DNA of 64,000 bases from Patescibacteria group bacterium (GTDB lineage Bacteria; Patescibacteriota; Microgenomatia; UBA10105; UBA927), in assembly GCA_035510735.1 (NCBI GenBank), contig DATKGN010000012.1:9013-73012 (forward strand). Reading direction: 5' to 3'. Of the stretch, positions 26,736-41,808 are shown piece by piece. The translations under genes were made by a program, and so were the position numbers. Every line of letters starts with the position of its first letter. The first letter of the stretch is position 1. The notes under the pieces were generated by a model, which searched no databases, had not been told where the DNA came from, and saw only the letters and a program-made list of their open reading frames with translations.

Positions 26736-26744
26736 ATAGATTTA

Positions 26745-27115: not shown

Positions 27116-27124
27116 ACAAACTCT

Positions 27125-28345: not shown

Positions 28346-28393
28346 ATTCTCTCATAATTCTGAAGGTAATGGCATTAAAGAGGGCTGACGGAG

Positions 28394-28430: not shown

Positions 28431-28624
28431 GCCAAATTTTCCGTCATACGGGGCTGTATTAGTTTTTCTTCGTTCTATGAATCAGTGTCCCAGCTTCCAT
28501 ACGTAGTCTAAGGAGATCACGCGAACTAATCTTTCTTTAAACTGTTTCAAAGATTCTTTAAGAAATCTTAGATAGATCAAATAGATTGCTGCTGAGAGGT
28601 TTTTTGAATAAGAATTATCTATAC

Positions 28625-29353
28625 TTATCCTGTTTGCAATAGATATGAATCGTGAAGTTTGACGTAAGCTTCATTGAGATTAGTTTTAAATTGTTCGGGA
28701 TCGGTAGGTAATGAATACTGGGTGGGATTTGGATAAAATACTAAATTATCAACGCCACTCTCTTCAAGTTTATACGCATTTTTTAGGTGTTTATATTCAT
28801 AGTATATATTTGCATGTACCCAATGGTTATTTGCTAGATTGATGCCGTAAGATTCATAATTTGGATCATCATAATGATGTAAGGTTACCAAAAGGCTGTC
28901 TGATAGCATTTCGGGGCGACCCGCTTCTTTATGTGAACTAACACCTCCGCCCTGACTCATGCCTGTTCCAGGATAGGAAACATTGTCGACAACAGTTACT
29001 AAAGGTCTTCCCTTCCAAGTTTTGTATGTAAAAGCGAATTGCAGGTGAACAGTTGCTGAATCTATGGAATGATTGGTTGTGACAGTGTCTTTTTTAATAG
29101 GGTTGCCGATAATATCCGCGATTTTTTGAAATCGTTGTTGTACACCAAAAACATCATTAAATTCCACAAGTTTTGCAATTTCTAATTGAACTTTTTTATC
29201 TCGCACTGCAAGTCTGGAAATTTCATCCTGCTGTTTTGCTAATAATTGCTGTTGTTCAGAAAGTGTTAGATTGGTTTTTGATACTGCTTTTGCATCCCTC
29301 AGTTCTTTAGGTCTTCCTTGAAGGCGTTTGGCTAAATCTTCTAAGTCGTTCAT
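28625..29353 (-). CDS. hypothetical protein A (coiled-coil N-terminus, Tyr/His-rich C-terminal domain)
   Basis: 242-aa ORF with good coding periodicity and no recognisable family; C-terminal HHYDDPNYESYGINLANNHWVHANIYYEYKH; AT-rich. Confidence 0.5.
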   Translation of the reverse strand: MNDLEDLAKRLQGRPKELRDAKAVSKTNLTLSEQQQLLAKQQDEISRLAVRDKKVQLEIAKLVEFNDVFGVQQRFQKIADIIGNPIKKDTVTTNHSIDSATVHLQFAFTYKTWKGRPLVTVVDNVSYPGTGMSQGGGVSSHKEAGRPEMLSDSLLVTLHHYDDPNYESYGINLANNHWVHANIYYEYKHLKNAYKLEESGVDNLVFYPNPTQYSLPTDPEQFKTNLNEAYVKLHDSYLLQTG

Positions 29354-29515
29354 ATAGATTATTCTGACAGGCTAATTATAGCACGTAAGGTAAAATTTTT
29401 CGTGCTACATAACAGTTAACATTTTTCCGTATAAAACTGCTGGAATAGGAGATGCTGACCCGTCTTATGATTTGAACAACAGTCGGATAACCATACTATG
29501 CCTACAAAGATATGT

Positions 29516-29556
29516 AATAGGTTCTAAGTTCTTGTAAACCCGCAAAAAATATAAGG
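29516..29556 (-). repeat. cassette-boundary element, copy 2: AATAGGTTCTAAGTTCTTGTAAACCCGCAAAAAATATAAGG
   Basis: 38-74 nt 3' of gene B's stop and about 165 nt 5' of gene A's start; the downstream TAGAGCG is shared with copy 0. Confidence 0.55.
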
Positions 29557-29594
29557 ATAGAGCGTCTATATGTTCTATTTATTATTTTGATTTT

Positions 29595-30257
29595 TTACTC
29601 TGATTCTTGAGCGACAACATTGGCTCTGGGGAAAATTTCGTGAGTTGGTGAGTAGTCATCAGAAATAAAACCAACTTTCAGCATTGAGCGAACAGCATCT
29701 AATTGATTTTTTTCTCCCTGTTCAGCGAGGATCACTGCGGCCTCAATTGCCGCACCAGTAAACCAACCTCCTGCTATTTCCTGCTCTTTATTCGTATTTG
29801 GAATACCTAATGTAATAGCTGTGAATCTTCCCCAAAAATCCCACAGATACCAACGAAACACGTCTGGCGGATTACCATTGTTGATCAAGTTAGGCTTCCG
29901 ATATATAGTGCCGGTTTCTTTGTTGCCGGTTTTAATGAGCTCCATCAGTGCCTGTGTCCAGCGCTGCCGTTCAGGGCGATTGGTGTAAGCAAAGGGGATA
30001 GGAAGTTCGAGGGCATCTTTCGTTGTTAGTATTGTATGAGCCTGGTTAACGGCAGCCAGTCCTTGAGTGTGATTACCTGATTTGAGAAGAAGATTAACTT
30101 TTTGTACTGATTTGCTGAGGGTTGTAATTTCTCGAAAGAGAAGTCCTTCTGTAGAGATAACAGTGCTGATAGCCTCTTGTAGTTGTAAACCCTCATCCGC
30201 GAGGTAGCGTGTAATACCTCGAAAGGTCACCTCAAGTCTTTGTTCCTGCGAAATCAT
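29595..30257 (-). CDS. hypothetical protein B
   Basis: 220-aa ORF with no recognisable family (…PDVFRWYLWDFWGRFTAITLGIPNTNKEQEIAGGWFTGAAIEAAV…). A TGcTATAAT extended -10 lies 6 nt upstream of the ATG, suggesting a near-leaderless mRNA. Confidence 0.5.
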   Translation of the reverse strand: MISQEQRLEVTFRGITRYLADEGLQLQEAISTVISTEGLLFREITTLSKSVQKVNLLLKSGNHTQGLAAVNQAHTILTTKDALELPIPFAYTNRPERQRWTQALMELIKTGNKETGTIYRKPNLINNGNPPDVFRWYLWDFWGRFTAITLGIPNTNKEQEIAGGWFTGAAIEAAVILAEQGEKNQLDAVRSMLKVGFISDDYSPTHEIFPRANVVAQESE

Positions 30258-30340
30258 GGTCGGATTATAGCATGGGGAGCGTCCTTATGATCAATGTTGC
30301 CAATCTATCATTCTGTAATATGATTGATAGTTGGAAAGAT

Positions 30341-30376
30341 AGTAGGTTCTAAATTCTTGTTGCCCCGCAACATAGG
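30341..30376 (-). repeat. cassette-boundary element, copy 3: AGTAGGTTCTAAATTCTTGTTGCCCCGCAACATAGG
   Basis: 21-58 nt 3' of gene C's stop and about 85 nt 5' of gene B's start; GTTGC-CCC-GCAAC forms a perfect 5-bp hairpin in this copy. Confidence 0.55.
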
Positions 30377-30400
30377 TGATTTGGAGCTTATTGTGAGTAT

Positions 30401-31177
30401 TTACAAAGCGTTAACAAGGGCTTTGATCGCTTCTGAAAAGTCAGAAATTTCTATATCTTTATAGATCCAACCAATCTCGTCCATGCCTGTTGCGTACGAA
30501 CATTCGTGATAGCGAGATGGTTTGGTTAAGACGGCGTTGATAGGGTTTTCTCCGACTTGTGTGCCAAATGATTGTAAATAGTCATTCAGGGAATGTATTT
30601 CTTTCGCAATATACTTGGTTTGCGGAGGGCTATTTGAGATTGCAATGATGGTTCCGGAAAAACCCATGAATCGCAGTAATATTGCAAAATGAGTTGCATT
30701 TGGATGATAAAGATCATCTGGCATTACACCGCTTACGGACCAATTGCCTCGGTCTGGTTTTTTTATCGGTTCAAACGCAACCCCGCGCTTTTGTGCAATA
30801 AGTGACAGCATATTTTCTGTTGGCTTCCAATCGCCCCAATTTGTTTCATATTTGTTGTCTAATACCACGACATCGGCCGCGCGGTCCATTAACCCCAACG
30901 CCTTTACCATAAGATCATCCCCGCTGGCTGCGGTGAGTATTTCAGGCTGTGCCAGAGAAGGAGATGCTTGAAGAACGGAGCTCCAAGCTTGACTTGTCCA
31001 AGCAGCGGATCCTTCTTCATCATCTGCAATAACCACCCGTATACTTCCAGGTACCTCGCTTGATTTTAGTGACTCAAAATTCATAGTTTTGTAATCCCCC
31101 GCAACAAAATTAGTTTGGCTATTTCCAAACAAATGATACGTTATATTATTTTTTCCCCATTGCCTGATAATCGTCAA
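30401..31177 (-). CDS. hypothetical protein C (possibly an SGNH/GDSL-like hydrolase fold)
   Basis: 258 aa. A C-terminal D-x-x-H-P block (PDDLYHPNATH) resembles SGNH block V, and an N-terminal VVIADDEEGS block may correspond to block I; the similarity is weak. The first 31 codons overlap the sulfatase 3' end; an alternative start at 31084 (MNFESLK), preceded by GGGGGA, avoids the overlap. Confidence 0.45.
   Translation of the reverse strand: MTIIRQWGKNNITYHLFGNSQTNFVAGDYKTMNFESLKSSEVPGSIRVVIADDEEGSAAWTSQAWSSVLQASPSLAQPEILTAASGDDLMVKALGLMDRAADVVVLDNKYETNWGDWKPTENMLSLIAQKRGVAFEPIKKPDRGNWSVSGVMPDDLYHPNATHFAILLRFMGFSGTIIAISNSPPQTKYIAKEIHSLNDYLQSFGTQVGENPINAVLTKPSRYHECSYATGMDEIGWIYKDIEISDFSEAIKALVNAL
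31086..31110 (-). repeat. cassette-boundary element, copy 4 (TTTGTAATCCCCCGCAACAAAAT), 36-60 nt 3' of the sulfatase stop
   Basis: Same YTTGTAAYCCCCGCAACA core. It overlaps the SD/5' end of gene C depending on the start choice. Confidence 0.45.
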
Positions 31178-32687
31178 AAAGCGTACGCGCGATGTCCAGA
31201 TGTGAAAACAGAACGTTATTTTGTTCTCCCGGGTCTTTTTGAATATCGTAGAGCTCAGTAGGGAGCCATTGATTATCCTTTGGGTATAAAAATAATTTCC
31301 AGTTGCCGCGACGCAAGGTTCTATTTAACTCAACATCGCCATCCGCAACGAGGATGCGGTCGGGGAGAGGTGTACCGCCGATTGCAGGCACAAGGCTTAA
31401 TCCCTGATACGTATTGTGGGTTTTTATGCCGACGATATCGAGAATCGTCGGGAGTAAATCGACGGATTGTACGTTTGCATCGATCGTTTTTTTTGCCGTG
31501 TTTGGAATGTACATAATAAGCGGAATTCTGATATTGGAGTCGTAGGTGGTTGCATGTTCTATTTGTCCATGCTCCATAAATTCCTCTCCGTGATCGGCAG
31601 TTATGATGACGATGGTGTTGTCGCGTACTGTTTTGTCCTGCAAAAATGCGAGAAGGTTTGCAATCCGGGATGTGTCCATTTCATGAATCCGCTGATCATA
31701 TAAGGCTCGGAGATAATCAACGTTAGTAGAATTTTTCGTATCAATATGCTCTCTATATAGAATGCTGTAACTGTAATATGCGGAAATCGGTTTAGTATCA
31801 ATGGGATCTTCCATTTGGGCTTTTTGAATGATATTTCGCATCTTGTCGTAGTCTCCGGGATACTTTTTTAAATCGTTAACAAGAGCGGTGAGCGTTTTTG
31901 CTTCTCCAGGGCCAAGATTGTGTTTTTGTACATCATCTGGTATCTGCTGGATAAGAAAATTAATAACATCATTGGTCATTACCCTGAGCTCACTGTGTTT
32001 TGTCGGGATTGTGGGAACGATGGTTTTCGCATAAAGGAACGGGCGGTCATCAATAAGATACGGCGCATGGACGTCATACGTGTGGAGAAATAAAAACGTT
32101 TTTTTTCCGTTTTCAACATTCGTTTTGAAATCAGTAAGGGCGCTGTCCCATGAAATCGTATCCTCGTTATATATTTCATCAATGCCGCGGTTATAGACAG
32201 AGTAGATTGGAAGCGTATTGTCATTGATTCCCATAAGGAACGATGTTGTATAGCCATTGTCTTTCAATATTTGCGGAAGAAACGGAACGCTACGGCTGAG
32301 GTAATTGCTCTCATCAATCACGCCGTGCGTGTACGGATATAATCCCGTGAAAATTGAAACATGGCTCGGAAGCGTCCATGTGGCGTTTGAGTACATATGA
32401 CTGAAGAAGATGCTATTTTTTGCAAGTAGACAAAGATTAGGTGCCGTGTCACGGGAATATCCGTAACAAGGGAGATGGTTGGCGCTTAATGTGTCGAGTG
32501 ATACCAGAATGATATTGCAATGCACACATAGTGGTTTTGGAGCTTGAAAATGGGCCACAATCTGTGTATGAAATCTAATAATGAGGAATAAAAAAAGGAT
32601 TATTTCAACACCAGTGAGTATCCACAAAAATTTTTGGTATTTGCGTGAAAGCCGCATATTTTTTATGCTAGTAGATAATGGGTCCAT
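31146..32687 (-). CDS. sulfatase-family protein (LTA synthase/arylsulfatase-like) with an N-terminal TM anchor
   Basis: ILVSLDTLSANHLPCYGYSRDTAPNL...SNATWTLPSHVSIFTGLYPYTHGV...TADHGEEF matches the sulfatase metal-binding core. A Cys in the CxxxR-like position is not obvious, so it may be LtaS/EptA-like rather than a true arylsulfatase. Confidence 0.65.
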   Translation of the reverse strand: MDPLSTSIKNMRLSRKYQKFLWILTGVEIILFLFLIIRFHTQIVAHFQAPKPLCVHCNIILVSLDTLSANHLPCYGYSRDTAPNLCLLAKNSIFFSHMYSNATWTLPSHVSIFTGLYPYTHGVIDESNYLSRSVPFLPQILKDNGYTTSFLMGINDNTLPIYSVYNRGIDEIYNEDTISWDSALTDFKTNVENGKKTFLFLHTYDVHAPYLIDDRPFLYAKTIVPTIPTKHSELRVMTNDVINFLIQQIPDDVQKHNLGPGEAKTLTALVNDLKKYPGDYDKMRNIIQKAQMEDPIDTKPISAYYSYSILYREHIDTKNSTNVDYLRALYDQRIHEMDTSRIANLLAFLQDKTVRDNTIVIITADHGEEFMEHGQIEHATTYDSNIRIPLIMYIPNTAKKTIDANVQSVDLLPTILDIVGIKTHNTYQGLSLVPAIGGTPLPDRILVADGDVELNRTLRRGNWKLFLYPKDNQWLPTELYDIQKDPGEQNNVLFSHLDIARTLFDDYQAMGKK

Positions 32688-33316
32688 TTACAATGATAGC
32701 GCGGCGGCTGCTTTTTATTTTCGGTGTCGTTCTGATAATCTTCGTCGGTTACATTCTGATTAAGAATTTGTTTTCCTGTAATGCATATCGGTGTCTCGTG
32801 TTTTCCGGCAAAGGGTCATGGCGTACCCGCGAAGTGTATGAGGAAACACAAACGGCGTGGCGCGGTCTCATTAACGATCCGAGATTTCTTGTACGCCTTG
32901 AAGAAGTGAGGAACGTTGATGCAAAAAGCGCAAACGAACTGACGAAGATTACCGTCATGAAGCTTTTAGGTTTATTTGATTCGGCGCGGTCACCATACCC
33001 GGGGGCAATTACGAATGAAGTTGTGTGTCAGGATGATTTTAAACCGAAAGGCGGCGTATTTACGAACACTGTCGGTGTCGACGTGTCATTTTATACGGGG
33101 TATCTTGACAGCCGTATGCAGTACGGCAGTTGTGTCGAGGATCAGGTAGCCTATCACGGGAGTCTCGGTATATTTTACTGTCCGAATATTCGGGAGTGGT
33201 ATGAAGTGGAACTTATAGCTCCTAAAGGGAAAACCGAGCCTTCGGACTGGTACAAATCATTATTTTATACCGTTCATTGTCGAAATCCCGGCATTTCGTC
33301 CGGTTTGACTTTTTGA
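32678..33316 (+). CDS. hypothetical membrane-anchored protein, divergent from the sulfatase gene
   Basis: 212 aa with an N-terminal TM helix (LLFIFGVVLIIFVGYILI), Cys-containing ectodomain, and no family match. Confidence 0.4.
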   Translation: MGPFTMIARRLLFIFGVVLIIFVGYILIKNLFSCNAYRCLVFSGKGSWRTREVYEETQTAWRGLINDPRFLVRLEEVRNVDAKSANELTKITVMKLLGLFDSARSPYPGAITNEVVCQDDFKPKGGVFTNTVGVDVSFYTGYLDSRMQYGSCVEDQVAYHGSLGIFYCPNIREWYEVELIAPKGKTEPSDWYKSLFYTVHCRNPGISSGLTF

Positions 33317-33333
33317 CGTTGAAATGCGATAAT
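33305..33333 (+). promoter_or_regulatory. strong sigma70-like promoter (TTGACT - 17 nt - GATAAT) overlapping the stop of the preceding gene
   Basis: TTGACT at 33305-33310 and GATAAT at 33328-33333, with no ORF downstream for about 480 nt. Confidence 0.45.
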
Positions 33334-33339
33334 CTATTT

Positions 33340-33505
33340 TAGTTGAATCAAACGCGCTGATCCGGATGGTTGGAACCGGGGAGCGGCACAAAAGTATGTG
33401 ACGGAGGCGAAACCGTAAAAGGCTGCAACATATGTCGCATAAGCGGAGTATGTCATGAATGAGGTTACCTCATTATTTTGACGAACTCCCCGCAAGGGGA
33501 TTTTT
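33340..33505 (+). ncRNA. candidate small RNA of about 165 nt, bounded by the promoter above and tandem intrinsic terminators
   Basis: Predicted TSS near 33340. An AATGAGG-TTA-CCTCATT hairpin plus U-tract lies at about 33460-33480, and a UCCCC-GCAA-GGGGA hairpin plus UUUUUU at 33486-33505. Internal GC-rich helices are present and no ORF exceeds 8 codons. Confidence 0.35.
33486..33505 (+). terminator. Rho-independent terminator (CTCCCC-GCAA-GGGGA + T6)
   Basis: Seen directly in the sequence. Confidence 0.5.
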
Positions 33506-33710
33506 TGATGGCTCGTTAACGAATGAATTCGTATTCGTGAGTTTATGAGCCGATCAATCCTCCTAACGTCGCTCCTTGAGCCGCGCTACGAATAGTAGGG
33601 CGGCCCGCAATGCTTCGCAATGCGAGGCGGACGGGTAAAGCGAAAGGGAAGATGGGGAGGGTGTAGGTCAAAGTGAGTTAACGAATCAAGGTGGCACAGT
33701 CCCGGAGTGG

Positions 33711-33766
33711 GCCCTTGGAGATTTCTTTTGTCGTGGCGGCAAAAGAAGTTTGCAAGGGCTTTTTTG
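33711..33766 (+). terminator. long imperfect hairpin (GCCCTTG...TTTCTTTTG...CAAAAGAA...CAAGGGC) followed by T6; terminator or attenuator before the next CDS
   Basis: Seen in the sequence; it closes a second structured GC-rich noncoding stretch (33516-33766). Confidence 0.35.
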
Positions 33767-33810
33767 TGTTTATGCGAGCCTGTTGTTACGTATTTAATAA
33801 GGATAAATAT

Positions 33811-34383
33811 ATGGGAATAGAAGCTGTATCAGCATATTTTAATATCGAAAACCCGAATAGAAGGGGATCACAAGTTATGGGACAAAGAGCGGTTGAATTG
33901 GCGGGGGAGCCGTTTCTGTTGCACGAGGATGTATTTAGCAGTGAGCAGGTAGAACGTATGAAGAAAACATCGTATCACTTAGGTACGGGTCATCGGCAAT
34001 TTTTTGGATTTGACCGATATCCGGAGACGATCATTATGACTGATAACGCGCATAACTGTTTGGCCGGGCTGTGTATGCTCGACAAAGGAATTTTTGTTTT
34101 TCATGATCCGCCAATGAAAATTTCAAGAGCCAAACTGTCACCTCCAAGAGGAAAGATAAAAGAGAAAATAATCGGCGGAGCGCTGGATTATTGGAGGGCG
34201 ACTCAGGCGATGTATGAGCGCGAATGTGGCTCAGGCTTTCAGTATATACAAAAACCTGAAGGTCATAGTGAGAATGTGGATTATAGCTTTGCTTTTGTTA
34301 TTGATATGGCTCAAAGAACGGTGACCTATGGGTATTATTACAACCCAAAAGGAATAAGTGGTGATGGATGGATTTGGGATTAA
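33811..34383 (+). CDS. hypothetical protein
   Basis: ATG at 33811 with an AAGGA RBS (MGIEAVSAYF...). Contains NAHNCLAGLCML and a later EGHSEN, compatible with but not diagnostic of a papain-like Cys/His pair. The track ORF from 33691 extends into the structured leader. Confidence 0.4.
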   Translation: MGIEAVSAYFNIENPNRRGSQVMGQRAVELAGEPFLLHEDVFSSEQVERMKKTSYHLGTGHRQFFGFDRYPETIIMTDNAHNCLAGLCMLDKGIFVFHDPPMKISRAKLSPPRGKIKEKIIGGALDYWRATQAMYERECGSGFQYIQKPEGHSENVDYSFAFVIDMAQRTVTYGYYYNPKGISGDGWIWD

Positions 34384-34483
34384 TATGAATAGAACCTATT
34401 GGATAAAAACAAAAGGCCGGGAATATTGGCGAAGCAATCCGCTTGTTATTCCTGTATAAATTTAGTTTTTTTTGGAGGATAGT

Positions 34484-35791
34484 ATGAAACAAAATATATT
34501 AGGAAGCCGGGAGCTTCCGGAAACGTATCTCAATCTCCCGTATTATTTGAATAAATATTTGGGCGAGCTCTCTCCCCCGCCGCTTGATCCAAAGACGATG
34601 CAGCCTGTAGGACCGGGAGCGCTTGCGCCGCTTTTCCCGATGGCACTTATCAAACAGGAGGTTTCTCTGGAAAAAGAGATTCCTATCCCGGGCGAAGTAC
34701 GGGAGTTGTACGAGATGTACAGACCAACGCCGCTTATCCGGGCTAAACGGTTGGAGCGACTGCTCGATACGCCCGCGCGTATCTATTTTAAATATGAGGG
34801 GGCGTCACCGGTTGGGAGCCATAAACTCAACACCGCCCTAGCACAAGCGTATTACAACAGGAAGGAAGGAATTCTTGCGCTTACTACCGAGACGGGAGCG
34901 GGTCAATGGGGGAGCGCACTTGCACTTGCCTGTCGGCTGTTCGGTCTCCGATGTCGCGTATTTATGGTACGGGCGTCCTATGATCAAAAGCCGTACCGGC
35001 GGACAGTGATGGAGCTGTACGGCGCGAGAGTCAGTGCAAGCCCGTCAACGGAGACGGAGGCAGGGCGTTCTTTTTTGGCGAAGGATCCTGCAACGTCCGG
35101 GAGCTTAGGGATGGCAATTTCAGAGGCCATTGAGGTAGCCGCATCGCACACCCTCACGCACTATGCGCTAGGAAGCGTCCTTAATCATGTGCTTTTGCAC
35201 CAGACCATTATCGGTCAGGAGGCGAAAAAGCAGCTTGAGAAGGAGGGAGTGTATCCCGACATTGTCATCGGGTGCTGCGGCGGGGGAAGCAATCTCGCGG
35301 GGATCAGTTTTCCCTTTCTTGCGGATAAACTTTCCGGCCATACGAAGCATCTTCGCGTGGTTGCGGTTGAACCGACCGCGTGTCCGAGTCTGACGAAAGG
35401 CGAGTATCGCTACGATTCGGGAGACACGGCAGGGATGACGCCACGTCTTAAGATGTACACGATGGGAAGTGATTTTATGCCGTCACCCATCCATGCCGGA
35501 GGCTTGCGGTATCACGGCGACTCGCCTTTAGTGAGTTTTTTGTACCACAAAAAACTCATTGAAGCCATCGCGTATGACCAGAAAGAGGTGTTTGAGGCTG
35601 CGCGGACGTTCGCCGGGTCTGAAGGAATCATCCCTGCGCCGGAATCGGCGCATGCTATACGTCACGCAATCGTTGAAGCGCGGCGGGCAAAAGAAGAGGG
35701 TAAGAAGAAAACAATCTTATTTAACCTCTCCGGGCACGGGCTTTTGGACCTGGGCGCATATGAAGAGTTTTTGAAAGGAAGGATGAAGTAA
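34484..35791 (+). CDS. TrpB-like PLP-dependent enzyme (tryptophan synthase beta-related family)
   Basis: ATG at 34484 with a [21 protein letters not shown]...[22 protein letters not shown] (PLP-Lys context) ...[15 protein letters not shown]...[12 protein letters not shown] has the TrpB/CysK fold II signature but a TrpB-related architecture of about 435 aa. Confidence 0.55.
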
Positions 35792-35845
35792 TGGAAAGGC
35801 GACGGCCTGTTATTAAATAGGCCGTCGCCACAAACAGGAGTTTAT

Positions 35846-36724
35846 ATGAGTGAAGAAAATTTATTATCTTTGGGAGCAACTCCGGACGATGATATAACAC
35901 CGGAGCGCTATGCTGTGGCAATTGAGCAATTGGAGGAATTCAGCCGTTTAGATCTTTTGGATATTAAATCGTTGGCGGACTTATCAACTGTAACTGCGTT
36001 AGTCAGATCCGCACTACGAGATATTATTGTTTCAGCTGGTGAATTAGATAAATATTCTATATCGGAGGTTTCGGTACCTGACATAGAAGGAAATCCAAGA
36101 ACTGGTATTCTACCAGGGTTCTATAATTACGAACACGAATTTGTTAAAGAACTTATTCACTTATCAATTGAGCAATACGGTGACGACGAACGTCTTATTC
36201 TCATTAAGCTTCAAAAATCCGTTGTAGATTTGCGTACTGATGAACAAGAACGACTGCGGATTCTCAATATTGTAAAAGGTTACGTGCCAGAGTTAATAAA
36301 TGGTATAACAGATGCCCTTCGTGGATTTAGTCCAGGAGGAGATTTAGATCAAACGATTCATACGGCTCTTATGGAAGTAATACAAGAAGCAATGGGTGGA
36401 ACAAGCAAGAAAGAGAGATCAGTCAATGCGAATACAATTATTAACGAAGTTATTAAATATCTCATTCATAGAATTGAAGAAGGACATGGTCCCATGAGGG
36501 AGATGCATGTTAACATGCCGGTTCGAAAGCATTTTGATGAATGTATGCCTGAAGAGCTAAAAGCCGTTGATTGTCTAAACGGTTTAGGTGTCTTCAGTCC
36601 TATAGATGAGCCTGACAATGTGCTAACTCACCAAGCGTTTTTTAGAGTATTTCAGGAGATCGTGAGAGACGTGTTGCCGACATTTCCTAAACCGTTTCAA
36701 GAGAAAAGAGAGGAAGCATTATGA
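35846..36724 (+). CDS. hypothetical protein (AT-rich relative to its flanks)
   Basis: 292 aa, acidic, no family match; about 38% GC against about 50% in the neighbouring TrpB-like and racemase genes. Confidence 0.45.
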   Translation: MSEENLLSLGATPDDDITPERYAVAIEQLEEFSRLDLLDIKSLADLSTVTALVRSALRDIIVSAGELDKYSISEVSVPDIEGNPRTGILPGFYNYEHEFVKELIHLSIEQYGDDERLILIKLQKSVVDLRTDEQERLRILNIVKGYVPELINGITDALRGFSPGGDLDQTIHTALMEVIQEAMGGTSKKERSVNANTIINEVIKYLIHRIEEGHGPMREMHVNMPVRKHFDECMPEELKAVDCLNGLGVFSPIDEPDNVLTHQAFFRVFQEIVRDVLPTFPKPFQEKREEAL

Positions 36725-37428
36725 AACAGAACAAACAAATCATTGGTGTGCTTGGCGGCATGGGGCCGCAGGCAAGTTGCGAGTTATATCGATTGCTTAT
36801 TGAAGGGGCAAGACGCAAGTTTGGTGCACGGATGAACGATGAGTACCCGGAAGTACTCATTGATTCGGTTCCGGTTCCTGATGCCTATGCGGATTTGACA
36901 AAAATGGAGGAAGTGGCACGAATGCTCGAAGACCGGATAAGCAGAATGACTCAGTATGGAGCTACATCCATATCAATGGCGTGTAATACCGTTTGTTTAT
37001 TTGCGGATCGGCTGCAGAAGAGGACGCCGCTGCCTGTAATTTCCGTTGTTGATGAAGTGGTGCGTGAAGTATCCAAGCATCATAAAAAGGTTTTATTGCT
37101 TGCTTCCTCAACGTCACTACGGCTCGGGTTATATCAAATTCGGCTTGCACGCGCAGGAATGTCTTATATGGTACCGGAGCCAAAGGAATATGACTTGTTG
37201 GATAGTCTCATTTTAGAAGTACTTGGGGGTCGAGATCGGAAGGATTTAATGGAAAAGTTGGTACATTTGGTTGAGCGACATGTTGCCTGTGAGAATATCG
37301 AAGCAATTGTTTTAGGGTGCACTGAATTGCCGCTTATATTCCCGACGGATAACCGTTTTCCGGTTTACAGTTCGCTTTCCGTACTCGCCGAAAGCTTATT
37401 AAAACGGTATTATAAGGAGGCCATATGA
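36721..37428 (+). CDS. aspartate/glutamate/hydantoin racemase-family protein
   Basis: IIGVLGGMGPQAS...SMACNTV...VLGCTELPLIF shows the two conserved Cys-containing blocks of Asp/Glu racemases. Confidence 0.7.
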   Translation: MKQNKQIIGVLGGMGPQASCELYRLLIEGARRKFGARMNDEYPEVLIDSVPVPDAYADLTKMEEVARMLEDRISRMTQYGATSISMACNTVCLFADRLQKRTPLPVISVVDEVVREVSKHHKKVLLLASSTSLRLGLYQIRLARAGMSYMVPEPKEYDLLDSLILEVLGGRDRKDLMEKLVHLVERHVACENIEAIVLGCTELPLIFPTDNRFPVYSSLSVLAESLLKRYYKEAI

Positions 37429-39824
37429 ATCTGAAAGATAAAATTGAATCAATTCTAGAAGAGAAAAAAGTTACCTATCGTTTTATTCCGCTGCCGGAAG
37501 ATTTGCCGCCGGATGTGCCATCGCATGCTGCGTTCCATGGAATTGGGATGAAAAACGCGATGACGACTATTTTGTACCGTACGGAAAAAGGGATTATCGC
37601 TGCAGTGAAGCGGGCTGATACAAAAGTTGACCCTAATCGATTAAAGGTTCTCGCGAAGGTAAAGGAGTTACAGTTTGCGTTAGAGGAAGATCTGAAACAA
37701 TTAGGCGTTGAGGTTGGCATGGTCCCATATCTTGGGCTTGATGCTCCGTTTTATATTGATACGTCGGTATTGGAAATCGGGAAAGCATACGGAACGGCAG
37801 CAATGAAAACCATGGGCATGGTGATGGACGCCAAAGACATGCCGAAGGTAAACGGCGGAACTGTCGGGGACTTTGCCATAGAAGTACCTACGGCAAGTTT
37901 AGAAAAATATGTACAAACGATAGATGCGCTTAAGAGTAGCGGTCTTTCGTATGAACTTATTAAACATCCGCCTATTAAAACCGTAGAAGAAGGTTTGGCA
38001 TATTTAGGAATTACTGCTGATCAGGGTGTGTCGACATTACTTTACAAAACAGAGAGCGGACCGGTTGCAGTGCTCAGGCGCGATGATCATCAACTATCAG
38101 ACCAAAAGATTAAAACTGCTCTTCAGATAAAAAGTCTTCTGATGTGTAAGCCGGCCGAGATTCTCGAGTTAACCGGTTGCGAGTCGGGGTATGTGTCGCC
38201 ATATAATCCGAAGATGACGATGCTTATGGATCAAACAATACTCGAAAAGAAGGTAGTGTATTTAGGTACTGGCAGCCCGGAATATGATTTGAAAATTAAA
38301 CCAAAGGATCTCGCAGTTTTCACCCACGCAAAAACTGCGGACGTTATTGAGTCAGGAGTTATCCGGTCAAAGCGCCGCATAGTCTCAGGGATCACCCCGA
38401 GCGGTGACGGGACGCTACACATCGGCAACTATCTTGGTGCGGTAGAGCAGTTTATACGGTTTGCGAAATCGTTTGAATGTTTTCTCTTTGTCGCCGACAT
38501 GCATGGACTTACGACGATCCAAGATAAAAAGCACTTATCAGGGAATATTGAAGCGTTAATTTTGAACGAACTTGCGCTTCTTATGGGATTTTTAACCAAA
38601 GAAGAATTTGAACGAATTGTGTTTTATCGACAATCGGATATCGCGATGCACGGTGAATTACAGTCTATTATCAATAACGTGACGCCGTTGGGACTACTTA
38701 AACGCGCTCATGCATATAAAGATAAACTTGCAAAAGACATATCGGAGGATGACATCAACCTCGGGCTTTTTAATTATCCAATTCTTATGGCGGCTGACAT
38801 CATTATGTATAACGCAGACATCGTGCCTGTGGGGAAGGACCAAAAACAGCATGTAGAAATTACCCGAGATATTGCTGAGCGGTTTAATAAAACGTACAAG
38901 AAGAAAATATTTACCCTACCGGAACCGCTTATTCCGCAGGAAGTCGGTGCGATCATCGGGACCGACGGAAAACGCAAAATGAGTAAAAGTCTCGGGAATA
39001 TCATCGCTATATTTGAACCGGAGGATGTTATCAGGAAGCAAGTGATGAGTACGTATACCGATCCTACCCGAAAACACGCGACCGATCCCGGACATATCGA
39101 GGGGAATATGGTGTTTACATACTTAGACTATTTCGGTGATAAGCAGCAGGTTATCAAGATGAAGGAAGAGTATAAGAAGGGAAAGATTTCTGATGTCGCC
39201 GTCAAAGAATATTTGTTTAAGAGCCTTATAAAATACTTTGCACCAGCGAGAAAAGCATACGAAGAGCTTAAAAATAATCCGGAGATGGTAAAAGAAATCC
39301 TTAGACGCGGACAAGAGCGTGCGCTCGCGATTGCGTTACGGAAAATGAGAGACGTGCGTGAGGTAATCGGGCTTACCACACGGTATTCATTTTCAAGCTC
39401 TATGGCGAAAAACAAAATTAATATTGGATCCCCAATCCCTCCTTCGTCAAAGACTATGGATGGGCACGGCGGGTCGGGGATGACAATTTCCATCGACGAT
39501 TTTGCTCATGTCGAACTCCGGGTCGGAAAAGTCGTCGAAGCGAAAAATAAAGAGGGGAGCGAGAGACTCATCCGATTGGTGGTTGATATTGGCGAGGAAA
39601 AATCGCGGATTATATTCACTGGTGTGCGGCCATTCGGCTATCAACCCTCGGATTTTGCAGGAAAACAATTTTTATTCATCACCAATCTTGCTCCGCGCAA
39701 GATGCTTGATGAGGAGTCACAGGGGATGATCCTCGCGGTTGATGGTCCTTCGACAGGCTCAGGATTGAATAAACCAATATTCGTGAGTGCCGAGGGGATG
39801 CCCATCGGTGCAAAAATAAGATAA
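37425..39824 (+). CDS. trpS: tryptophan--tRNA ligase fused to two N-terminal YbaK/ProX-like deacylase domains and a C-terminal tRNA-binding (Trbp111/EMAP-like) domain
   Basis: Residues about 1-290 form two tandem YbaK-like repeats (each with …G/KTI/LLY+TE.G….V/A.RD/AD…-type blocks). Residues about 310-640 carry the TrpRS core: GITPSGDGTLHIGNYLGAV (HIGH variant), and KMSKS (GKRKMSKSLGN). The C-terminal DFAHVELRVGKVVEAKNKEG...LIRLVVDIGEEKSRIIFTGVRPF...ITNLAPRKM is an OB-fold tRNA-binding domain. Confidence 0.65.
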   Translation: MNLKDKIESILEEKKVTYRFIPLPEDLPPDVPSHAAFHGIGMKNAMTTILYRTEKGIIAAVKRADTKVDPNRLKVLAKVKELQFALEEDLKQLGVEVGMVPYLGLDAPFYIDTSVLEIGKAYGTAAMKTMGMVMDAKDMPKVNGGTVGDFAIEVPTASLEKYVQTIDALKSSGLSYELIKHPPIKTVEEGLAYLGITADQGVSTLLYKTESGPVAVLRRDDHQLSDQKIKTALQIKSLLMCKPAEILELTGCESGYVSPYNPKMTMLMDQTILEKKVVYLGTGSPEYDLKIKPKDLAVFTHAKTADVIESGVIRSKRRIVSGITPSGDGTLHIGNYLGAVEQFIRFAKSFECFLFVADMHGLTTIQDKKHLSGNIEALILNELALLMGFLTKEEFERIVFYRQSDIAMHGELQSIINNVTPLGLLKRAHAYKDKLAKDISEDDINLGLFNYPILMAADIIMYNADIVPVGKDQKQHVEITRDIAERFNKTYKKKIFTLPEPLIPQEVGAIIGTDGKRKMSKSLGNIIAIFEPEDVIRKQVMSTYTDPTRKHATDPGHIEGNMVFTYLDYFGDKQQVIKMKEEYKKGKISDVAVKEYLFKSLIKYFAPARKAYEELKNNPEMVKEILRRGQERALAIALRKMRDVREVIGLTTRYSFSSSMAKNKINIGSPIPPSSKTMDGHGGSGMTISIDDFAHVELRVGKVVEAKNKEGSERLIRLVVDIGEEKSRIIFTGVRPFGYQPSDFAGKQFLFITNLAPRKMLDEESQGMILAVDGPSTGSGLNKPIFVSAEGMPIGAKIR

Positions 39825-39826
39825 AA

Positions 39827-39885
39827 CTGGATTCCCGCCGGAGTTTACCCCGTACTTGATGCGGGGCGGAAATGACAAGCTATGT
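39827..39885. repeat. MITE/REP-like hairpin repeat (copy 2): CTGGATTCCCGCCGGAG...GCGGGGCGGAAATGACAAG
   Basis: Shares the CTGGATTCC...GGAATGACAA termini with copies in polA (48566-48647) and at 58939-58965; lies between convergent trpS and the REC gene. Confidence 0.5.
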
Positions 39886-39929
39886 AGGGGCCGGTTGGGG
39901 AGAAAATCCGCTAATACAATTGCTGGAGG

Positions 39930-40325
39930 TTATTCGCTTAAGAATCCTTTTATTTTATTGATAACCTGATCGGGCGTGTAATCGCTTTTAATCATATATC
40001 CACGGGCTCCGAGTGACGTTGCGCTGGCAACAGCAGTCTCCTGACCAAGATTTGATAAGACAACAACCGCTTTATTTGGTAGAACAGGCGGGGTTTCGTT
40101 TTTCAGTTTTTCAAGAATCTTTAATCCGTCCATTTTGGGGAGCATGATATCAAGGAGAACGAGATCATATCCGCCTTCATGCATTTTCTGATACGCTTCG
40201 TCTCCATCAACCGCATGATCAACAACAAATCCCTCTTCTTCAAAAATATCGATATAGAGCTCTCTGATGTATTGATCGTCTTCAACAACGAGGATTTTTT
40301 TCGGTAGCGGTGGTACATCTGTCAT
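39930..40325 (-). CDS. stand-alone response regulator receiver (CheY-like)
   Basis: KILVVEDDQYIRELYIDIFEEEGFVVDHAVDGDEAYQKMHEGGYDLVLLDIMLPKMDGLKILEKLK has the phospho-acceptor Asp in LLDIMLP and the conserved Lys in SDYTPDQVINKIK context; no output domain. Confidence 0.75.
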   Translation of the reverse strand: MTDVPPLPKKILVVEDDQYIRELYIDIFEEEGFVVDHAVDGDEAYQKMHEGGYDLVLLDIMLPKMDGLKILEKLKNETPPVLPNKAVVVLSNLGQETAVASATSLGARGYMIKSDYTPDQVINKIKGFLSE

Positions 40326-40329
40326 ACGT

Positions 40330-41808
40330 TCAGTGTAGCTGACCCTCTCCTGGCTGTAAAGCTGGTGAAACGATATGTTGTGCTATGGGAAGAGTAAACG
40401 TGAACGTAGAGCCTTTTCCGTATTCCGAAAGCGCGGTAATGTTGCCGCCGTGAAGTTCGACATATTGTTTGCAAATATAGAGTCCGAGCCCTGATCCGCT
40501 TCCCGTGATGGTCACATATGATCCTTCCAGCCGGCCGAATTTCGTGAATAATTTTGCCATATCTTCAGCTCGGATGCCATGCCCCGTGTCAATAATAGAT
40601 GTTTCAATCACCGTATCTTTTGCTCTCATGATAATGCGGATCGTCCCGTCCTGTGGAGTAAATTTATAGGCGTTGCCGACAAGATTTTCCAATACCTGGC
40701 GAATTTTTTCCCGGTCAATGGATACCTCCGGCAGATTATCCGGGGCGTCAAGTGATAGGTTAATATGGAGTTCAGCGGTTTTCGCCTGAAATTCATTAAG
40801 AATGTCCGATGCCAAGTTTTTGAGATTGATATTTTCCCGCTTAAGTTGGACCTTACCGCTTTCAATTCGTGAGATATCAAGCATCTCATTCACGAGGTGA
40901 ATGAGCCGTTCCGTTGAGTTATATACGCGATTTATATACTCTTTCGCCTTTGGTTCCAGAGGGCCAGCCTTATTATTTAATACGAGCCATGCATAACTTT
41001 TTATCGCTGTCATGGGTGTCCGAAGTTCATGAGAGGCGAGCGAAACGAATTCGTTTTTGAGTTTATCGAGAAGTTCCAGTTTTTGGTTTGCAACCTGGAG
41101 TTTACTATTGGTTTTTTGAATGTTTTCCAGAAGCTTTGCGTGGTCTATGGTGATGGCCACCATACCAATAAGCTCCGAAAGAGTTTCTTTCTCCATTCGG
41201 GAAAGGTCATCAACATTTTTAGATAATCCCAGTGATAAAACCCCCAATGCACGATCTCCAAGAACGAGAGGATAGATGATGATCGTTTTGACTTTTGTAA
41301 TCCGCTTTATGGAATCCGCCGTTTCCTGATTGACCAAGGGGGTGAGAATGTCGAGGATATTGTCAGTAACTTTTTGTTCCACGTCGCGGATCGCTCTGAT
41401 GGTTAAATTATTTGCGTCATCAAGGGGAATAACTGCTTCTTCAAGTGGTTTACCTACGAGTTTAAGGCCTTCAAGCATCTGAGGACTTTTTGTCATGGCA
41501 ACCGGGCGAAGAACGTTTGCCTTTTTATCAACGAGAGTTATAATAGCGGCCGCAAAATTGAGCTCTCTGACGATTGTATCGGCGATGAGTTGCGTGACTT
41601 CAGCGACAGATTTGGCCTGCGTTGTGATGTCGGAAAGCCGACGTAGGATAAGAAGTGTTTTGTTGCGGATGGAAAGTTCGAAATTTTGCTTGTAGATTGC
41701 CTGACTAGCTTTTGCGATCAAAACCTCATCGTCATTAGTTTTATCAGTCAAAGGAGGGAACTTGGAAGATTGAGCAGAACCGATGCGAACAGGGTCTTGA
41801 GCAGGCAT
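40330..41808 (-). CDS. GAF-domain sensor histidine kinase (cytoplasmic)
   Basis: N-terminal GAF-like region, HisKA H-box (ASHELRTPMTAI), and HATPase N, G1 (IIDTGHGI) and G2 (GSGLGL) boxes. Confidence 0.75.
   Translation of the reverse strand: MPAQDPVRIGSAQSSKFPPLTDKTNDDEVLIAKASQAIYKQNFELSIRNKTLLILRRLSDITTQAKSVAEVTQLIADTIVRELNFAAAIITLVDKKANVLRPVAMTKSPQMLEGLKLVGKPLEEAVIPLDDANNLTIRAIRDVEQKVTDNILDILTPLVNQETADSIKRITKVKTIIIYPLVLGDRALGVLSLGLSKNVDDLSRMEKETLSELIGMVAITIDHAKLLENIQKTNSKLQVANQKLELLDKLKNEFVSLASHELRTPMTAIKSYAWLVLNNKAGPLEPKAKEYINRVYNSTERLIHLVNEMLDISRIESGKVQLKRENINLKNLASDILNEFQAKTAELHINLSLDAPDNLPEVSIDREKIRQVLENLVGNAYKFTPQDGTIRIIMRAKDTVIETSIIDTGHGIRAEDMAKLFTKFGRLEGSYVTITGSGSGLGLYICKQYVELHGGNITALSEYGKGSTFTFTLPIAQHIVSPALQPGEGQLH

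What the first reader, a model, noticed from the sequence alone, without database searches (positions are those of the whole stretch)
37425..39824. Unusual aaRS architecture: TrpRS fused to two YbaK/ProX-type trans-editing domains and a C-terminal tRNA-binding domain
TrpRS is a class I synthetase with no known editing domain. Here a single 799-aa ORF joins two tandem YbaK/ProX-like deacylase folds, a complete TrpRS catalytic core (LHIGN / KMSKS) and a Trbp111/EMAP-type OB-fold tRNA-binding domain. The two N-terminal domains could deacylate mischarged tRNAs, or could have been recruited for an unrelated function. The gene directly follows an Asp/Glu racemase and a TrpB-like PLP enzyme, which raises the question of whether D-amino acids or Trp analogues are present that would need proofreading.
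Basis: partly seen in the sequence, partly recalled or inferred. Interest (0 to 1): 0.6.

Follow-up and report, generated by a model that had tools for sequence, protein, structure and literature searches.

The report
Tryptophan tRNA synthetase with editing-like domains
A candidate-phylum (Patescibacteria) bacterium makes its ordinary tryptophan-charging enzyme with two extra proofreading-type domains at the front and a tRNA-binding domain at the back, which matters because this enzyme family is not known to proofread and this bacterial version appears undescribed.

Summary
ORF 37425-39824 (+) encodes 799 aa with four parts: two tRNA_edit (YbaK/ProX/INS fold) domains, each above Pfam's threshold on its own; a complete bacterial-type TrpRS; and a Trbp111-type tRNA_bind domain. 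It is not an assembly artefact. The identical protein occurs on five contigs from four or more samples, and at least 87 related protein clusters carry one or two such domains.

New here:
- The appended domains fall into three distinct types (A, B, C), combined modularly (A-W-T, C-W-T, CB-W(-T), AB-W-T). The window has the rare A+B form.
- The gene is the positional orthologue of the plain trpS of relatives.
- All three types lack the Lys that the literature calls strictly conserved and essential in this superfamily. Each has an extra Lys/Arg directly across the β-hairpin instead.
- Both domains are conserved almost as well as the catalytic core.
- TrpB-like adjacency recurs in relatives; the racemase does not.

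The function is untested. My best guess is that these are accessory aminoacyl-tRNA hydrolases acting on tRNATrp. The rivals are tethered trans-editing of other tRNAs and non-catalytic tRNA handling. I rate it a new variant of a known kind, of moderate to high interest.

The parts
37425..39824 (+). Whole gene: 799-aa TrpRS with two N-terminal INS-like domains and a C-terminal tRNA-binding domain (architecture A-B-W-T)
   Evidence: ORF; domains; identical product on 5 independent contigs
37425..37904 (+). INS/YbaK-fold domain, type A (aa 1-160). The Lys column is Thr47 (37563-37565), the cross-strand Lys62-Arg63 is at 37608-37613, and the conserved loop VGMVPYLGL is at 37713-37739
   Evidence: tRNA_edit 49.5 bits alone; profile against PDB 1WDV gives E 1e-8; clustering into type A; AF2 pLDDT about 80-97
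37905..38363 (+). INS/YbaK-fold domain, type B (aa 161-313). The Lys column is Ser203 (38031-38033), the cross-strand Arg218-Arg219 is at 38076-38081, and the GXXXP-type loop GYVSP is at 38187-38201
   Evidence: tRNA_edit 89 bits alone; phmmer against 1WDV gives E 9.5e-13 with residue alignment; the type-B profile gives E 1e-16; Foldseek TM 0.90
38364..39404 (+). Bacterial-type TrpRS body (aa 314-660): Rossmann catalytic domain plus helical anticodon-binding domain. LHIGN is at 38415-38429, VGKDQ at 38829-38843 and KMSKS at 38976-38990
   Evidence: TIGR00233 272.6 bits against a cut-off of 176.75; tRNA-synt_1b 196 bits; motifs located
39405..39479 (+). Flexible, poorly conserved linker (aa 661-685)
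   Evidence: pLDDT below 50 for aa 660-685; 25% identity to L009, against 72-80% in the domains
39480..39821 (+). Trbp111/EMAP-type OB-fold tRNA-binding domain (aa 686-799)
   Evidence: tRNA_bind 66.5 bits against a cut-off of 27; matches the MetRS C-terminal domain models; present in 102 of 120 relatives
36721..37428 (+). Asp/Glu-racemase-family gene. Its stop overlaps the trpS start (ATGA). Not found next to trpS in any relative examined
   Evidence: absent from L005-L013
35846..36724 (+). 292-aa protein of unknown function, whose stop overlaps the racemase start (ATGA). Seen only in this genome
   Evidence: No Pfam family above threshold; only L001 and L003 (the same genome) match
34472..35791 (+). 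TrpB-like (TrpB2) PLP enzyme, first gene of the co-directional cluster. This adjacency to the fused trpS recurs in relatives
   Evidence: NF009057 689.5 bits and TIGR01415 630 bits; directly upstream of the fused trpS in L007 and L010
33913..34383 (+). Conserved unknown gene of about 156 aa ('n159') that also lies just upstream of the fused trpS in relatives
   Evidence: 50% identity to L006 5479-5940 and L013 3857-4318; no Pfam match

Best explanation
SHOWN. This is the housekeeping, bacterial-type tryptophanyl-tRNA synthetase of a Microgenomates-group Patescibacterium (CPR). It carries three accessory modules: two N-terminal INS-superfamily (YbaK/ProX-fold) domains of different lineage-specific types (A, then B) and a C-terminal Trbp111-type tRNA-binding domain. 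In this lineage the N-terminal modules are swapped, doubled or lost between close relatives. When present, they are under purifying selection comparable to the catalytic core. All of them have replaced the superfamily's A76-phosphate-binding Lys with a small residue, and all carry an extra Lys/Arg at the directly opposite position of the neighbouring β-strand.

INFERRED (about 0.4; the confidence score below refers to this part). The modules are still aminoacyl-tRNA hydrolases. They act on the 3' end of the tRNATrp held by the TrpRS dimer and the Trbp111 domain, that is, post-transfer editing in cis or across the dimer. The linkers to the Rossmann-fold N-terminus are very short (about 5-10 residues). 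That N-terminus lies at the active site, so the modules sit where the CCA end could swing into them. The relocated basic residue would take over the Lys role. Types A and B would clear different non-cognate products. The plausible substrates are (i) tRNATrp charged with Trp analogues that a promiscuous TrpB2 could make from scavenged indoles, and (ii) D-Trp-tRNATrp.
For: - Architecture and family. Fold: AF2 pLDDT 87.8; Foldseek TM 0.84-0.90 to APE2540, Thermus ProX and YbaK.
- Real and widespread: identical protein in four or more samples. Among the 120 best homologues plus the query (121 proteins), 88 carry one or two edit domains.
- Three domain types and their combinations: with hhalign A-B E 8e-20 and C-B E 2e-29.
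- Housekeeping orthology: the plain TrpRS+tRNA_bind gene P0099 sits in the same DivIC...trpS-FtsH-5'3'exonuclease-GT-SMC synteny as the fused genes. Core motifs are intact.
- Purifying selection: third codon positions are saturated (0.42-0.47 identity), yet amino-acid identity is 72-78% in A and 71-73% in B, against 79-80% in the core and 25% in the linker.
- Substrate-loop retention: GYVSP in B aligns with GGVPP, GGISP and GSLGP of solved members.
- Charge relocation: the Lys column is T/A/S/P while the next strand has K/R-R. Among 144 representative domains the counts are 98 with K and non-basic, 27 without K and basic, 18 without K and non-basic, and 1 with K and basic. The DSSP hairpin register pairs T47 with K62 and S203 with R218.
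- Coupling to the synthetase's own chemistry: INS-like domains have joined aromatic-amino-acid synthetases repeatedly. Examples are the N-terminal types here; a C-terminal fusion to TrpRS (P0267); a fusion to archaeal-type TyrRS (P0204); and a free-standing A-like gene 33 nt upstream of pheS (L018).
- Autonomous homologues exist, for example P0121 on a complete genome, as expected for an enzyme module.
- TrpRS is one of the few synthetases that make chiral errors (PMC10123102).
- TrpB2 lies next to the fused trpS in three genomes.
Against: - No activity was or could be measured.
- The Lys that is absent here is described as strictly conserved, and its mutation dramatically impairs deacylation in every member tested (PMC10164551).
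- The relocation idea rests on a secondary-structure register, not on coordinates. The Lys/basic-residue association is not corrected for phylogeny, and 18 Lys-less representatives have no compensating basic residue.
- Type A keeps only part of the GXXXP loop, and type C keeps little of it.
- Close relatives do without any edit domain (33 of 121), so whatever is edited is not a universal problem.
- TrpRS has no known natural near-cognate among the 20 amino acids.
- The only studied TrpRS with an editing-fold appendage, the Plasmodium AlaX-like domain, was concluded to provide tRNA binding rather than editing (PMC3680381).
- The racemase link is unique to this genome.
- Whether this lineage has the D-aminoacyl-tRNA deacylase DTD was not determined.
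Confidence: 0.4

Rival explanations
1. Non-catalytic recruitment. The INS-like folds have lost deacylase activity and serve as tRNA acceptor-end handling or affinity modules, as protein-protein adaptors, or as ligand sensors that tune TrpRS.
For: - The hallmark Lys is missing from all three TrpRS-fused types, and K-to-A abolishes activity in all tested members (PMC10164551).
- The Plasmodium TrpRS AlaX-like appendage was judged to give tRNA binding rather than editing (PMC3680381).
- The YbaK-like fold is reused in non-translation proteins such as SadB (9QZK) and Maqu_0641 (3MEM), which appear among the fold hits.
- The domains are dispensable in close relatives.
Against: - A dedicated tRNA-binding domain is already present at the C-terminus, so extra generic affinity seems redundant.
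- Two different, separately conserved types in tandem suggest distinct specificities.
- The substrate-loop motif is invariant in type B.
- Free-standing single-domain Lys-less homologues are common. That is hard to explain for a pure adaptor.
Confidence: 0.3
2. Tethered trans-editing. The domains are general trans-editing factors for errors made by other synthetases (for example Ala/Cys/Abu on tRNAPro, or Ser/Thr on several tRNAs). They are merely anchored on the TrpRS-Trbp111 scaffold in a genome-reduced organism, like a miniature multi-synthetase complex.
For: - The closest solved relatives are the ProXp-x-type proteins 1WDV and 2CX5, the ProRS INS domain and YbaK. All characterised INS members edit small amino acids (PMC11295145).
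- The Plasmodium TrpRS-AlaX fusion was originally read as a trans-factor covering for AlaRS (PMC3240968).
- A free-standing B-like protein sits in a context unrelated to trpS.
- The non-specific Trbp111 domain could recruit any tRNA.
Against: - INS-like domains have fused repeatedly and independently to TrpRS specifically, at both termini, and to TyrRS. This argues for coupling to the host synthetase.
- Other INS-aaRS fusions that have been characterised edit the host's own errors (ProRS).
- None of the characterised subfamily models is matched above cut-off.
- The very short linkers fix the domains beside the TrpRS active site.
Confidence: 0.2
3. Artefact. The 799-aa ORF results from mis-assembly or a frameshift that joins separate genes.
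For: One relative (L008/P0037) shows the gene split into 501-aa and 137-aa pieces, so sequence errors or pseudogenes do occur in this family.
Against: - The identical full-length product is found on five contigs from four or more independent samples.
- Full-length AB and CB architectures occur in several other assemblies.
- The N-terminus MNLKDKIE is conserved across type-A proteins.
- The AF2 model is confident across both junctions.
Confidence: 0.01

Closest known systems
ProRS INS domain and ProXp-ala-ProRS fusions (bacterial ProRS; Plasmodium and Trypanosoma ProRS)
   Same: A YbaK/INS-fold module sits in the same polypeptide as a synthetase. In the protozoan case it is N-terminal. The fold and the Pfam family (PF04073) are the same.
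   Different: The host here is a class I (Ic) TrpRS, not the class II ProRS. There are two modules of different types in tandem. The hallmark Lys is absent. No substrate is known.
Plasmodium falciparum cytosolic TrpRS with N-terminal AlaX-like domain (PMC3240968, PMC3680381)
   Same: A TrpRS carries an N-terminal domain of an editing-factor fold, although TrpRS has no canonical editing need. This is the only precedent I found for TrpRS.
   Different: The editing fold is different (AlaX, not INS/YbaK). The host is a eukaryote-type TrpRS, and the fusion was described as unique to alveolates. That domain was judged to be a tRNA-binding aid rather than an editor.
ProXp-x-type free-standing factors (T. 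thermophilus TTHA1699 2CX5/2Z0K; A. pernix APE2540 1WDV)
   Same: These are the best sequence and structure matches for types A and B (E 1e-8 to 1e-16; TM 0.84-0.90, rmsd 1.5-2.9 Å).
   Different: They are single-domain proteins that keep the Lys (vKTLiv / vKSLvf). ProXp-x deacylates Abu- and Ala-tRNA. Identity to the domains here is only 24-31%.
C-terminal Trbp111/EMAP-like domain of bacterial MetRS and free-standing Trbp111/CsaA
   Same: The same OB-fold tRNA_bind domain is appended C-terminally to a class I synthetase.
   Different: The host here is TrpRS. In this CPR lineage the TrpRS+tRNA_bind form is the norm (102 of 120 relatives).
D-aminoacyl-tRNA deacylase (DTD)
   Same: This is a functional analogy only. 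DTD removes D-Trp, D-Tyr and D-Phe from tRNA, which are the error classes of aromatic synthetases. INS-like domains turn up fused or adjacent to the same synthetases.
   Different: The fold is unrelated. No evidence here shows that INS-like domains act on D-aminoacyl-tRNA. DTD presence in this lineage was not determined.

Membership tests
INS superfamily (Pfam tRNA_edit PF04073: ProRS INS, YbaK, ProXp-*) | Profile match above the curated threshold, for each domain on its own | tested here: met
   aa 1-160 scores 49.5 bits and aa 161-313 scores 89 bits, against a cut-off of 25.5
INS superfamily (Pfam tRNA_edit PF04073: ProRS INS, YbaK, ProXp-*) | YbaK/ProX α/β fold | tested here: met
   AF2 model with mean pLDDT 87.8. 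Foldseek: 1WDV TM 0.90 at 1.5 Å, 2Z0K 0.87, 1DBU 0.86, 2DXA 0.83
INS superfamily (Pfam tRNA_edit PF04073: ProRS INS, YbaK, ProXp-*) | Strictly or nearly universally conserved Lys (Ec INS K279, Hi YbaK K46, Cc ProXp-ala K45) that binds the C75-A76 phosphate | tested here: not met
   That column is Thr47 in domain A and Ser203 in domain B. Across relatives it is A/T/V/P (type A), invariant S (type B) and A/S (type C). The feature's importance is taken from PMC10164551
INS superfamily (Pfam tRNA_edit PF04073: ProRS INS, YbaK, ProXp-*) | GXXXP-type substrate-binding loop | tested here: inconclusive
   Domain B has GYVSP aligned to GGVPP, GGISP and GSLGP. Domain A has G98-M-V-P101, with the Pro one position early. 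Type C has SGAASV, with no Pro. That this loop is a defining feature is from my own knowledge of the family
INS superfamily (Pfam tRNA_edit PF04073: ProRS INS, YbaK, ProXp-*) | Hydrolysis of a mischarged aminoacyl-tRNA | not testable with these tools
   Needs deacylation assays
YbaK (Cys-tRNAPro deacylase) subfamily | Equivalog model score above cut-off | tested here: not met
   TIGR00011 scores 45.3 against a cut-off of 153.25. NF007951 scores 22.7 against 243
ProXp-x subfamily (represented by PDB 2CX5) | Close sequence relationship to the characterised members, with retention of their active-site Lys | tested here: not met
   Only 24-31% identity to 2CX5 and 1WDV, and the Lys is replaced. 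This is the nearest solved neighbour, not a family assignment
Bacterial tryptophan--tRNA ligase (TIGR00233) | Equivalog score above cut-off, with class I HIGH and KMSKS signatures and the GxDQ Asp | tested here: met
   272.6 bits against 176.75. LHIGN at aa 331-335, KMSKS at aa 518-522, VGKDQ at aa 469-473
Bacterial tryptophan--tRNA ligase (TIGR00233) | Orthology with the lineage's housekeeping trpS (same genomic position) | tested here: met
   trpS-FtsH-5'3'exonuclease-glycosyltransferase-SMC synteny is shared with the unfused P0099 and with fused relatives. Whether this genome also has a second TrpRS is unknown
Trbp111/EMAP-type tRNA-binding domain (PF01588) | Profile match above threshold | tested here: met
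   66.5 bits against a cut-off of 27. All-β OB-like secondary structure over aa 698-786
Synthetases with a cis-editing domain (Ile, Leu, Val, Thr, Ala, Pro, Phe) | The appended domain hydrolyses the host synthetase's own misacylated product | not testable with these tools
   Only the co-linearity and the short linkers are shown. TrpRS is not among the seven families

The most novel reading that the evidence does not exclude
Lys-less INS-like domains are a previously unrecognised proofreading system for aromatic aminoacyl-tRNAs. On TrpRS they clear D-Trp-tRNATrp and/or tRNATrp charged with non-canonical tryptophans made by TrpB2 from scavenged indoles. That would make TrpRS the eighth synthetase family, and the first of subclass Ic, with genuine cis-editing. 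Types A, B and C would be interchangeable specificity cartridges, and the catalytic basic residue would have migrated to the neighbouring β-strand.
Probability: 0.3. Interest if true: 0.85.

Novelty: new variant of a known kind. Interest (0 to 1): 0.62.

Why it matters
Textbook and review accounts say that TrpRS needs and has no editing domain. [quoted passage not shown] This lineage contradicts those accounts at the sequence level in three ways:
- a bacterial class Ic synthetase carries one or two such domains;
- the domains come in three swappable types;
- all of them lack that Lys.

If the domains are active, three things follow. They would extend the list of proofreading synthetases. They would reveal which tryptophan-related errors matter in genome-reduced, scavenging CPR bacteria. 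They would also show a variant catalytic arrangement of a well-studied fold. If the domains are inactive, they are a clean bacterial example of an editing fold converted to another use. Either way the proteins are small, soluble-looking and directly testable. TrpRS variants with built-in discrimination against Trp analogues or D-Trp would also interest genetic-code engineers.

Tried and rejected
- Assembly or frameshift artefact: rejected.
- The two domains as a recent tandem duplication: rejected. They are only 22% identical and belong to separate families that also occur singly.
- Membership of YbaK proper: rejected on equivalog scores.
- The racemase as a conserved partner: rejected. It is absent from all nine related loci.
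- Operon signals: the promoter/terminator scan of 33300-40100 found no more sites than shuffled sequence. Co-transcription is therefore inferred only from the ATGA overlaps.
- RNA elements: Rfam found nothing (no T-box leader, for example) except a tRNA-Met at 25919-25991.
- Another INS-like gene or a DTD gene in the window: none found.
- The genome-contig scan returned only 5 loci, too few for phylogenetic profiling.
- Candidate free-standing type-A homologues: P0125 is not on record, and P0128 is a contig-end fragment.
- The chapter that defines ProXp-7, -8 and -9 (Kuzmishin Nagy 2020) is not in the library. I therefore could not test whether types A, B or C fall into those uncharacterised clusters.
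- Literature searches for a described bacterial TrpRS-INS fusion found nothing. That is absence from this library only.
- Pocket-size analysis was not possible because the model coordinates are not exposed.


Full report
**The observation.**
The window holds one uninterrupted ORF at 37425-39824 (+) of 799 codons. Pfam finds two tRNA_edit stretches, a class I W/Y catalytic domain and a tRNA_bind domain. Each N-terminal half passes the tRNA_edit gathering threshold on its own (49.5 and 89 bits, against 25.5), and the C-terminus scores 66.5 bits for tRNA_bind. The centre is a bona fide bacterial TrpRS. TIGR00233 scores 272.6 bits against a cut-off of 176.75, and LHIGN, VGKDQ and KMSKS are all present.

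An AlphaFold model of aa 1-313 is confident (mean pLDDT 87.8). It superposes on APE2540 (TM 0.90, 1.5 Å), Thermus ProX, and H. influenzae and E. coli YbaK. The full-length model is also confident (mean pLDDT 86.4), except for the KMSKS loop and the aa 660-685 linker.

**Not an artefact.**
The identical 799-aa product is called on five contigs from one ENA assembly and three Logan assemblies. Proteins with the same A-B-TrpRS-tRNA_bind order, at 72-77% identity, occur in other assemblies (P0001, P0002, L009). One relative (L008) has the gene split in two, which looks like a sequencing error or a pseudogene.

**Who has it.**
The hits that carry names are Gottesmanbacteria, Roizmanbacteria, Microgenomates and 'Patescibacteria group', so the window comes from a CPR bacterium. 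I clustered the N-terminal domains of the 120 best homologues plus the query. They fall into three clearly separate types:
- type A: 51 copies; this is domain 1 here;
- type B: 25 copies; this is domain 2 here;
- type C: 33 copies; absent here.

With W for the TrpRS core and T for tRNA_bind, the architectures are A-W-T 43, W-T 33, C-W-T 16, CB-W 12, CB-W-T 5, A-W 4, AB-W-T 3, B-W-T 2, B-W 2 and AB-W 1. The window's A+B form is therefore the rare one. B always abuts the core when it is present.

The types are homologous but distant: A-B are 22% identical (hhalign E 8e-20) and C-B are 30% identical (E 2e-29). On a neighbour-joining tree of the TrpRS core the architectures are interleaved. The minimum numbers of changes are 25 for A, 17 for C, 8 for B and 6 for T on 120 tips. 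That tree has no support values. The pattern nonetheless suggests frequent gain, loss or exchange.

**Housekeeping gene, accessory modules.**
The unfused TrpRS+tRNA_bind gene P0099 lies in the same DivIC...trpS-FtsH-5'-3'-exonuclease-glycosyltransferase-AA-kinase-SMC-Fic neighbourhood as the fused genes of L006, L007 and L012. The window shows the same downstream order. The fused gene is thus the positional orthologue of the lineage's normal trpS, and the edit domains are optional additions.

They are not decaying, however. Between the window and L005 or L009, third codon positions are near saturation (0.42-0.47 identity). Amino-acid identity is still 72-78% in A, 71-73% in B, 79-80% in the core and 75-76% in tRNA_bind, but only 25% in the linker.

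**A non-canonical active site.**
The literature states that the Lys equivalent to ProXp-ala K45 is strictly (elsewhere 'nearly universally') conserved in the INS superfamily, that it contacts the C75-A76 phosphate, and that its mutation dramatically impairs deacylation in every member tested (PMC10164551). I aligned the query against PDB sequences. I also aligned the type A, B and C profiles against PDB, against each other, and against 150 library representatives. In all of these the column is Thr47 in domain A and Ser203 in domain B. Across relatives it is A/T/V/P in type A, invariant Ser in type B, and Ala/Ser in type C.

All three types instead have a dibasic K/R-R motif (VKRAD, LRRDDHQ, IRRGD). 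Canonical members have a hydrophobic residue followed by R, P or S at that place. Among 144 representative domains the counts are:

| Lys column | Extra basic residue | Count |
|---|---|---|
| K | no | 98 |
| not K | yes | 27 |
| not K | no | 18 |
| K | yes | 1 |

All 11 TrpRS-fused representatives are Lys-less, and 10 of those 11 carry the extra basic residue. Fisher's test gives 3e-16, but it is not corrected for shared ancestry.

In the AF2 models the two strands form a hairpin with a two-residue turn (E45-53/E56-63 and E201-209/E212-219). That register puts T47 opposite K62 and S203 opposite R218, on the same face of the sheet. I read this as a possible relocation of the phosphate-binding charge. 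It is an inference from register, not from coordinates. Domain B keeps the GXXXP-type loop (GYVSP). Domain A keeps G..VP. Type C mostly does not.

**Context.**
The gene is the last of a co-directional run of five genes:
- n159 (33913-34383, unknown function);
- TrpB-like enzyme (34472-35791);
- a 292-aa unknown (35846-36724);
- an Asp/Glu-racemase-family gene (36721-37428);
- trpS.

The last two junctions are ATGA overlaps. In nine related loci the slot upstream of the fused trpS is filled in one of two ways. Either the TrpB-like gene is there (L007, L010, and the window). Or there is a pair made of an unknown 283-330-aa gene overlapping a second, archaeal-type TrpRS of about 360 aa (TIGR00233 194-197 bits in L005 and L006, 174 bits in the L008 copy, against a cut-off of 176.75), as in L005, L006, L008, L009, L012 and L013. 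The racemase and the 292-aa gene occur only in this genome. The tryptophan theme of the locus is therefore conserved, and the D-amino-acid hint is not.

**Wider pattern.**
The exhaustive representative search with aa 1-313 gave 654 hits at E ≤ 1e-3 but only 38 at E ≤ 1e-10, so these domain types are a narrow group. The hits include:
- more distant N-terminal fusions to other TrpRS subtypes (P0126, P0130, P0135, P0138, P0194);
- a TrpRS with a C-terminal INS-like domain (P0267);
- a Lys-bearing YbaK-like domain fused to an archaeal-type TyrRS (P0204; NF006330 378 bits);
- a free-standing A-like gene 33 nt upstream of pheS (L018);
- a true free-standing B-like gene (P0121, 54% identical) on a complete 1.45-Mb genome.

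The repeated association with the aromatic-amino-acid synthetases is suggestive, because these enzymes are among the few that make chiral errors (PMC10123102). It rests on single examples, however.

**Interpretation.**
The shown part is that this is the housekeeping TrpRS with selectively maintained, modular, non-canonical INS-fold appendages and a Trbp111 domain.

I think the appendages most likely remain aminoacyl-tRNA hydrolases working on tRNATrp bound to the same dimer (about 0.4). The reasons are as follows:
- Other characterised INS-synthetase fusions edit the host's own errors.
- Fusion to TrpRS has happened more than once.
- The linkers to the Rossmann N-terminus are only about 5-10 residues.
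- The substrate loop is kept in type B.
- Autonomous homologues exist.
- A separate tRNA-binding domain already supplies generic affinity.

The candidate substrates are Trp analogues made by a promiscuous TrpB2 from scavenged indoles, or D-Trp.

The main rival (about 0.3) is loss of catalysis. The fold would then be reused for tRNA handling or regulation, as concluded for the AlaX-like appendage of Plasmodium TrpRS (PMC3680381), and in line with the missing Lys. A second rival (about 0.2) is a trans-editing factor for other tRNAs that is simply tethered to TrpRS, which is how the Plasmodium fusion was first read (PMC3240968). The artefact explanation is excluded.

**Comparison and novelty.**
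The 2024 review lists seven synthetase families with editing domains. [quoted passage not shown] My full-text searches found no description of a bacterial TrpRS-INS fusion. Public records call these proteins simply 'tryptophan--tRNA ligase'. The nearest precedents are the ProRS fusions (same fold, different host) and the alveolate TrpRS-AlaX fusion (same host family, different fold). I therefore class this as a new variant of a known kind.

Noticed in passing
L005 240-2298; L006 3538-5464; L008 1788-3705; L009 5865-7791; L012 5722-7633; L013 1916-3833: Six close relatives carry a second, archaeal/eukaryote-type TrpRS of about 360 aa (NF008925 about 250 bits; TIGR00233 194-197 bits in L005 and L006, above the 176.75 cut-off, and 174 bits in the L008 copy). 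It lies 1-2 genes upstream of the fused bacterial-type trpS. It is always preceded by, and overlaps, an unknown 283-330-aa gene with no Pfam or NCBIfam match. This pair occupies the slot that the TrpB-like gene fills in the window, L007 and L010. The window itself has no such TrpRS.
   Followed up: partly
window 33913-34383 (+); L006 5464-5943; L013 3857-4318: A conserved protein of about 156 aa and unknown function (50% identity between genomes, no Pfam match) sits just upstream of the trpS locus in several relatives.
   Followed up: partly
window 35846-36724 (+): A 292-aa protein with no family match is wedged between the TrpB-like gene and the racemase, and its stop overlaps the racemase start. 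It was found only in this genome's own contigs.
   Followed up: partly
P0267 (499 aa), P0204 (527 aa), L018 342-1502: There are other unusual INS-domain associations. One is a TrpRS with a C-terminal INS-like domain. Another is a Lys-bearing YbaK-like domain fused to an archaeal-type TyrRS. A third is a free-standing type-A-like gene 33 nt upstream of pheS.
   Followed up: partly
P0134, P0136, P0141, P0151, P0152, P0190 and others: A sizeable group of free-standing proteins of about 150-175 aa, annotated as YbaK/EbsC family (some from Terriglobales), has Pro in place of the supposedly invariant Lys ('APTLI/APTFV'). These proteins have no compensating basic residue. The 'strictly conserved Lys' rule therefore fails for a whole uncharacterised branch.
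   Followed up: partly
L008 6001-7916: In one relative the A-B-TrpRS gene is split into a 501-aa ORF and a 137-aa ORF, and its tRNA_bind region is also broken. Transposase genes lie nearby. This is a pseudogene or an assembly error.
   Followed up: no
window 15747-16853 (+): A 368-aa protein consists only of a class II (D/K/N) synthetase catalytic domain, with no anticodon-binding domain. It may be a synthetase paralogue of the EpmA/AsnA type.
   Followed up: no
window 39930-41808 (-): A response regulator and a GAF-HisKA-HATPase histidine kinase converge on the 3' end of trpS. The same pair follows the fused trpS in L010.
   Followed up: no
window about 26000-37400 compared with L016/L017: Compared with the unfused relative, the window has roughly 20 kb of extra genes between the class I synthetase/tRNA-Met region and trpS. 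They include an MFS transporter, a sulfatase and the TrpB-like/racemase cluster. The GC content dips to 0.38-0.40 at 26-30 kb, so this may be an acquired segment.
   Followed up: no
fold hits 9QZK (SadB) and 3MEM: YbaK-like folds occur in Pseudomonas SadB and in a Marinobacter signalling protein. These are examples of the fold used outside tRNA editing.
   Followed up: no
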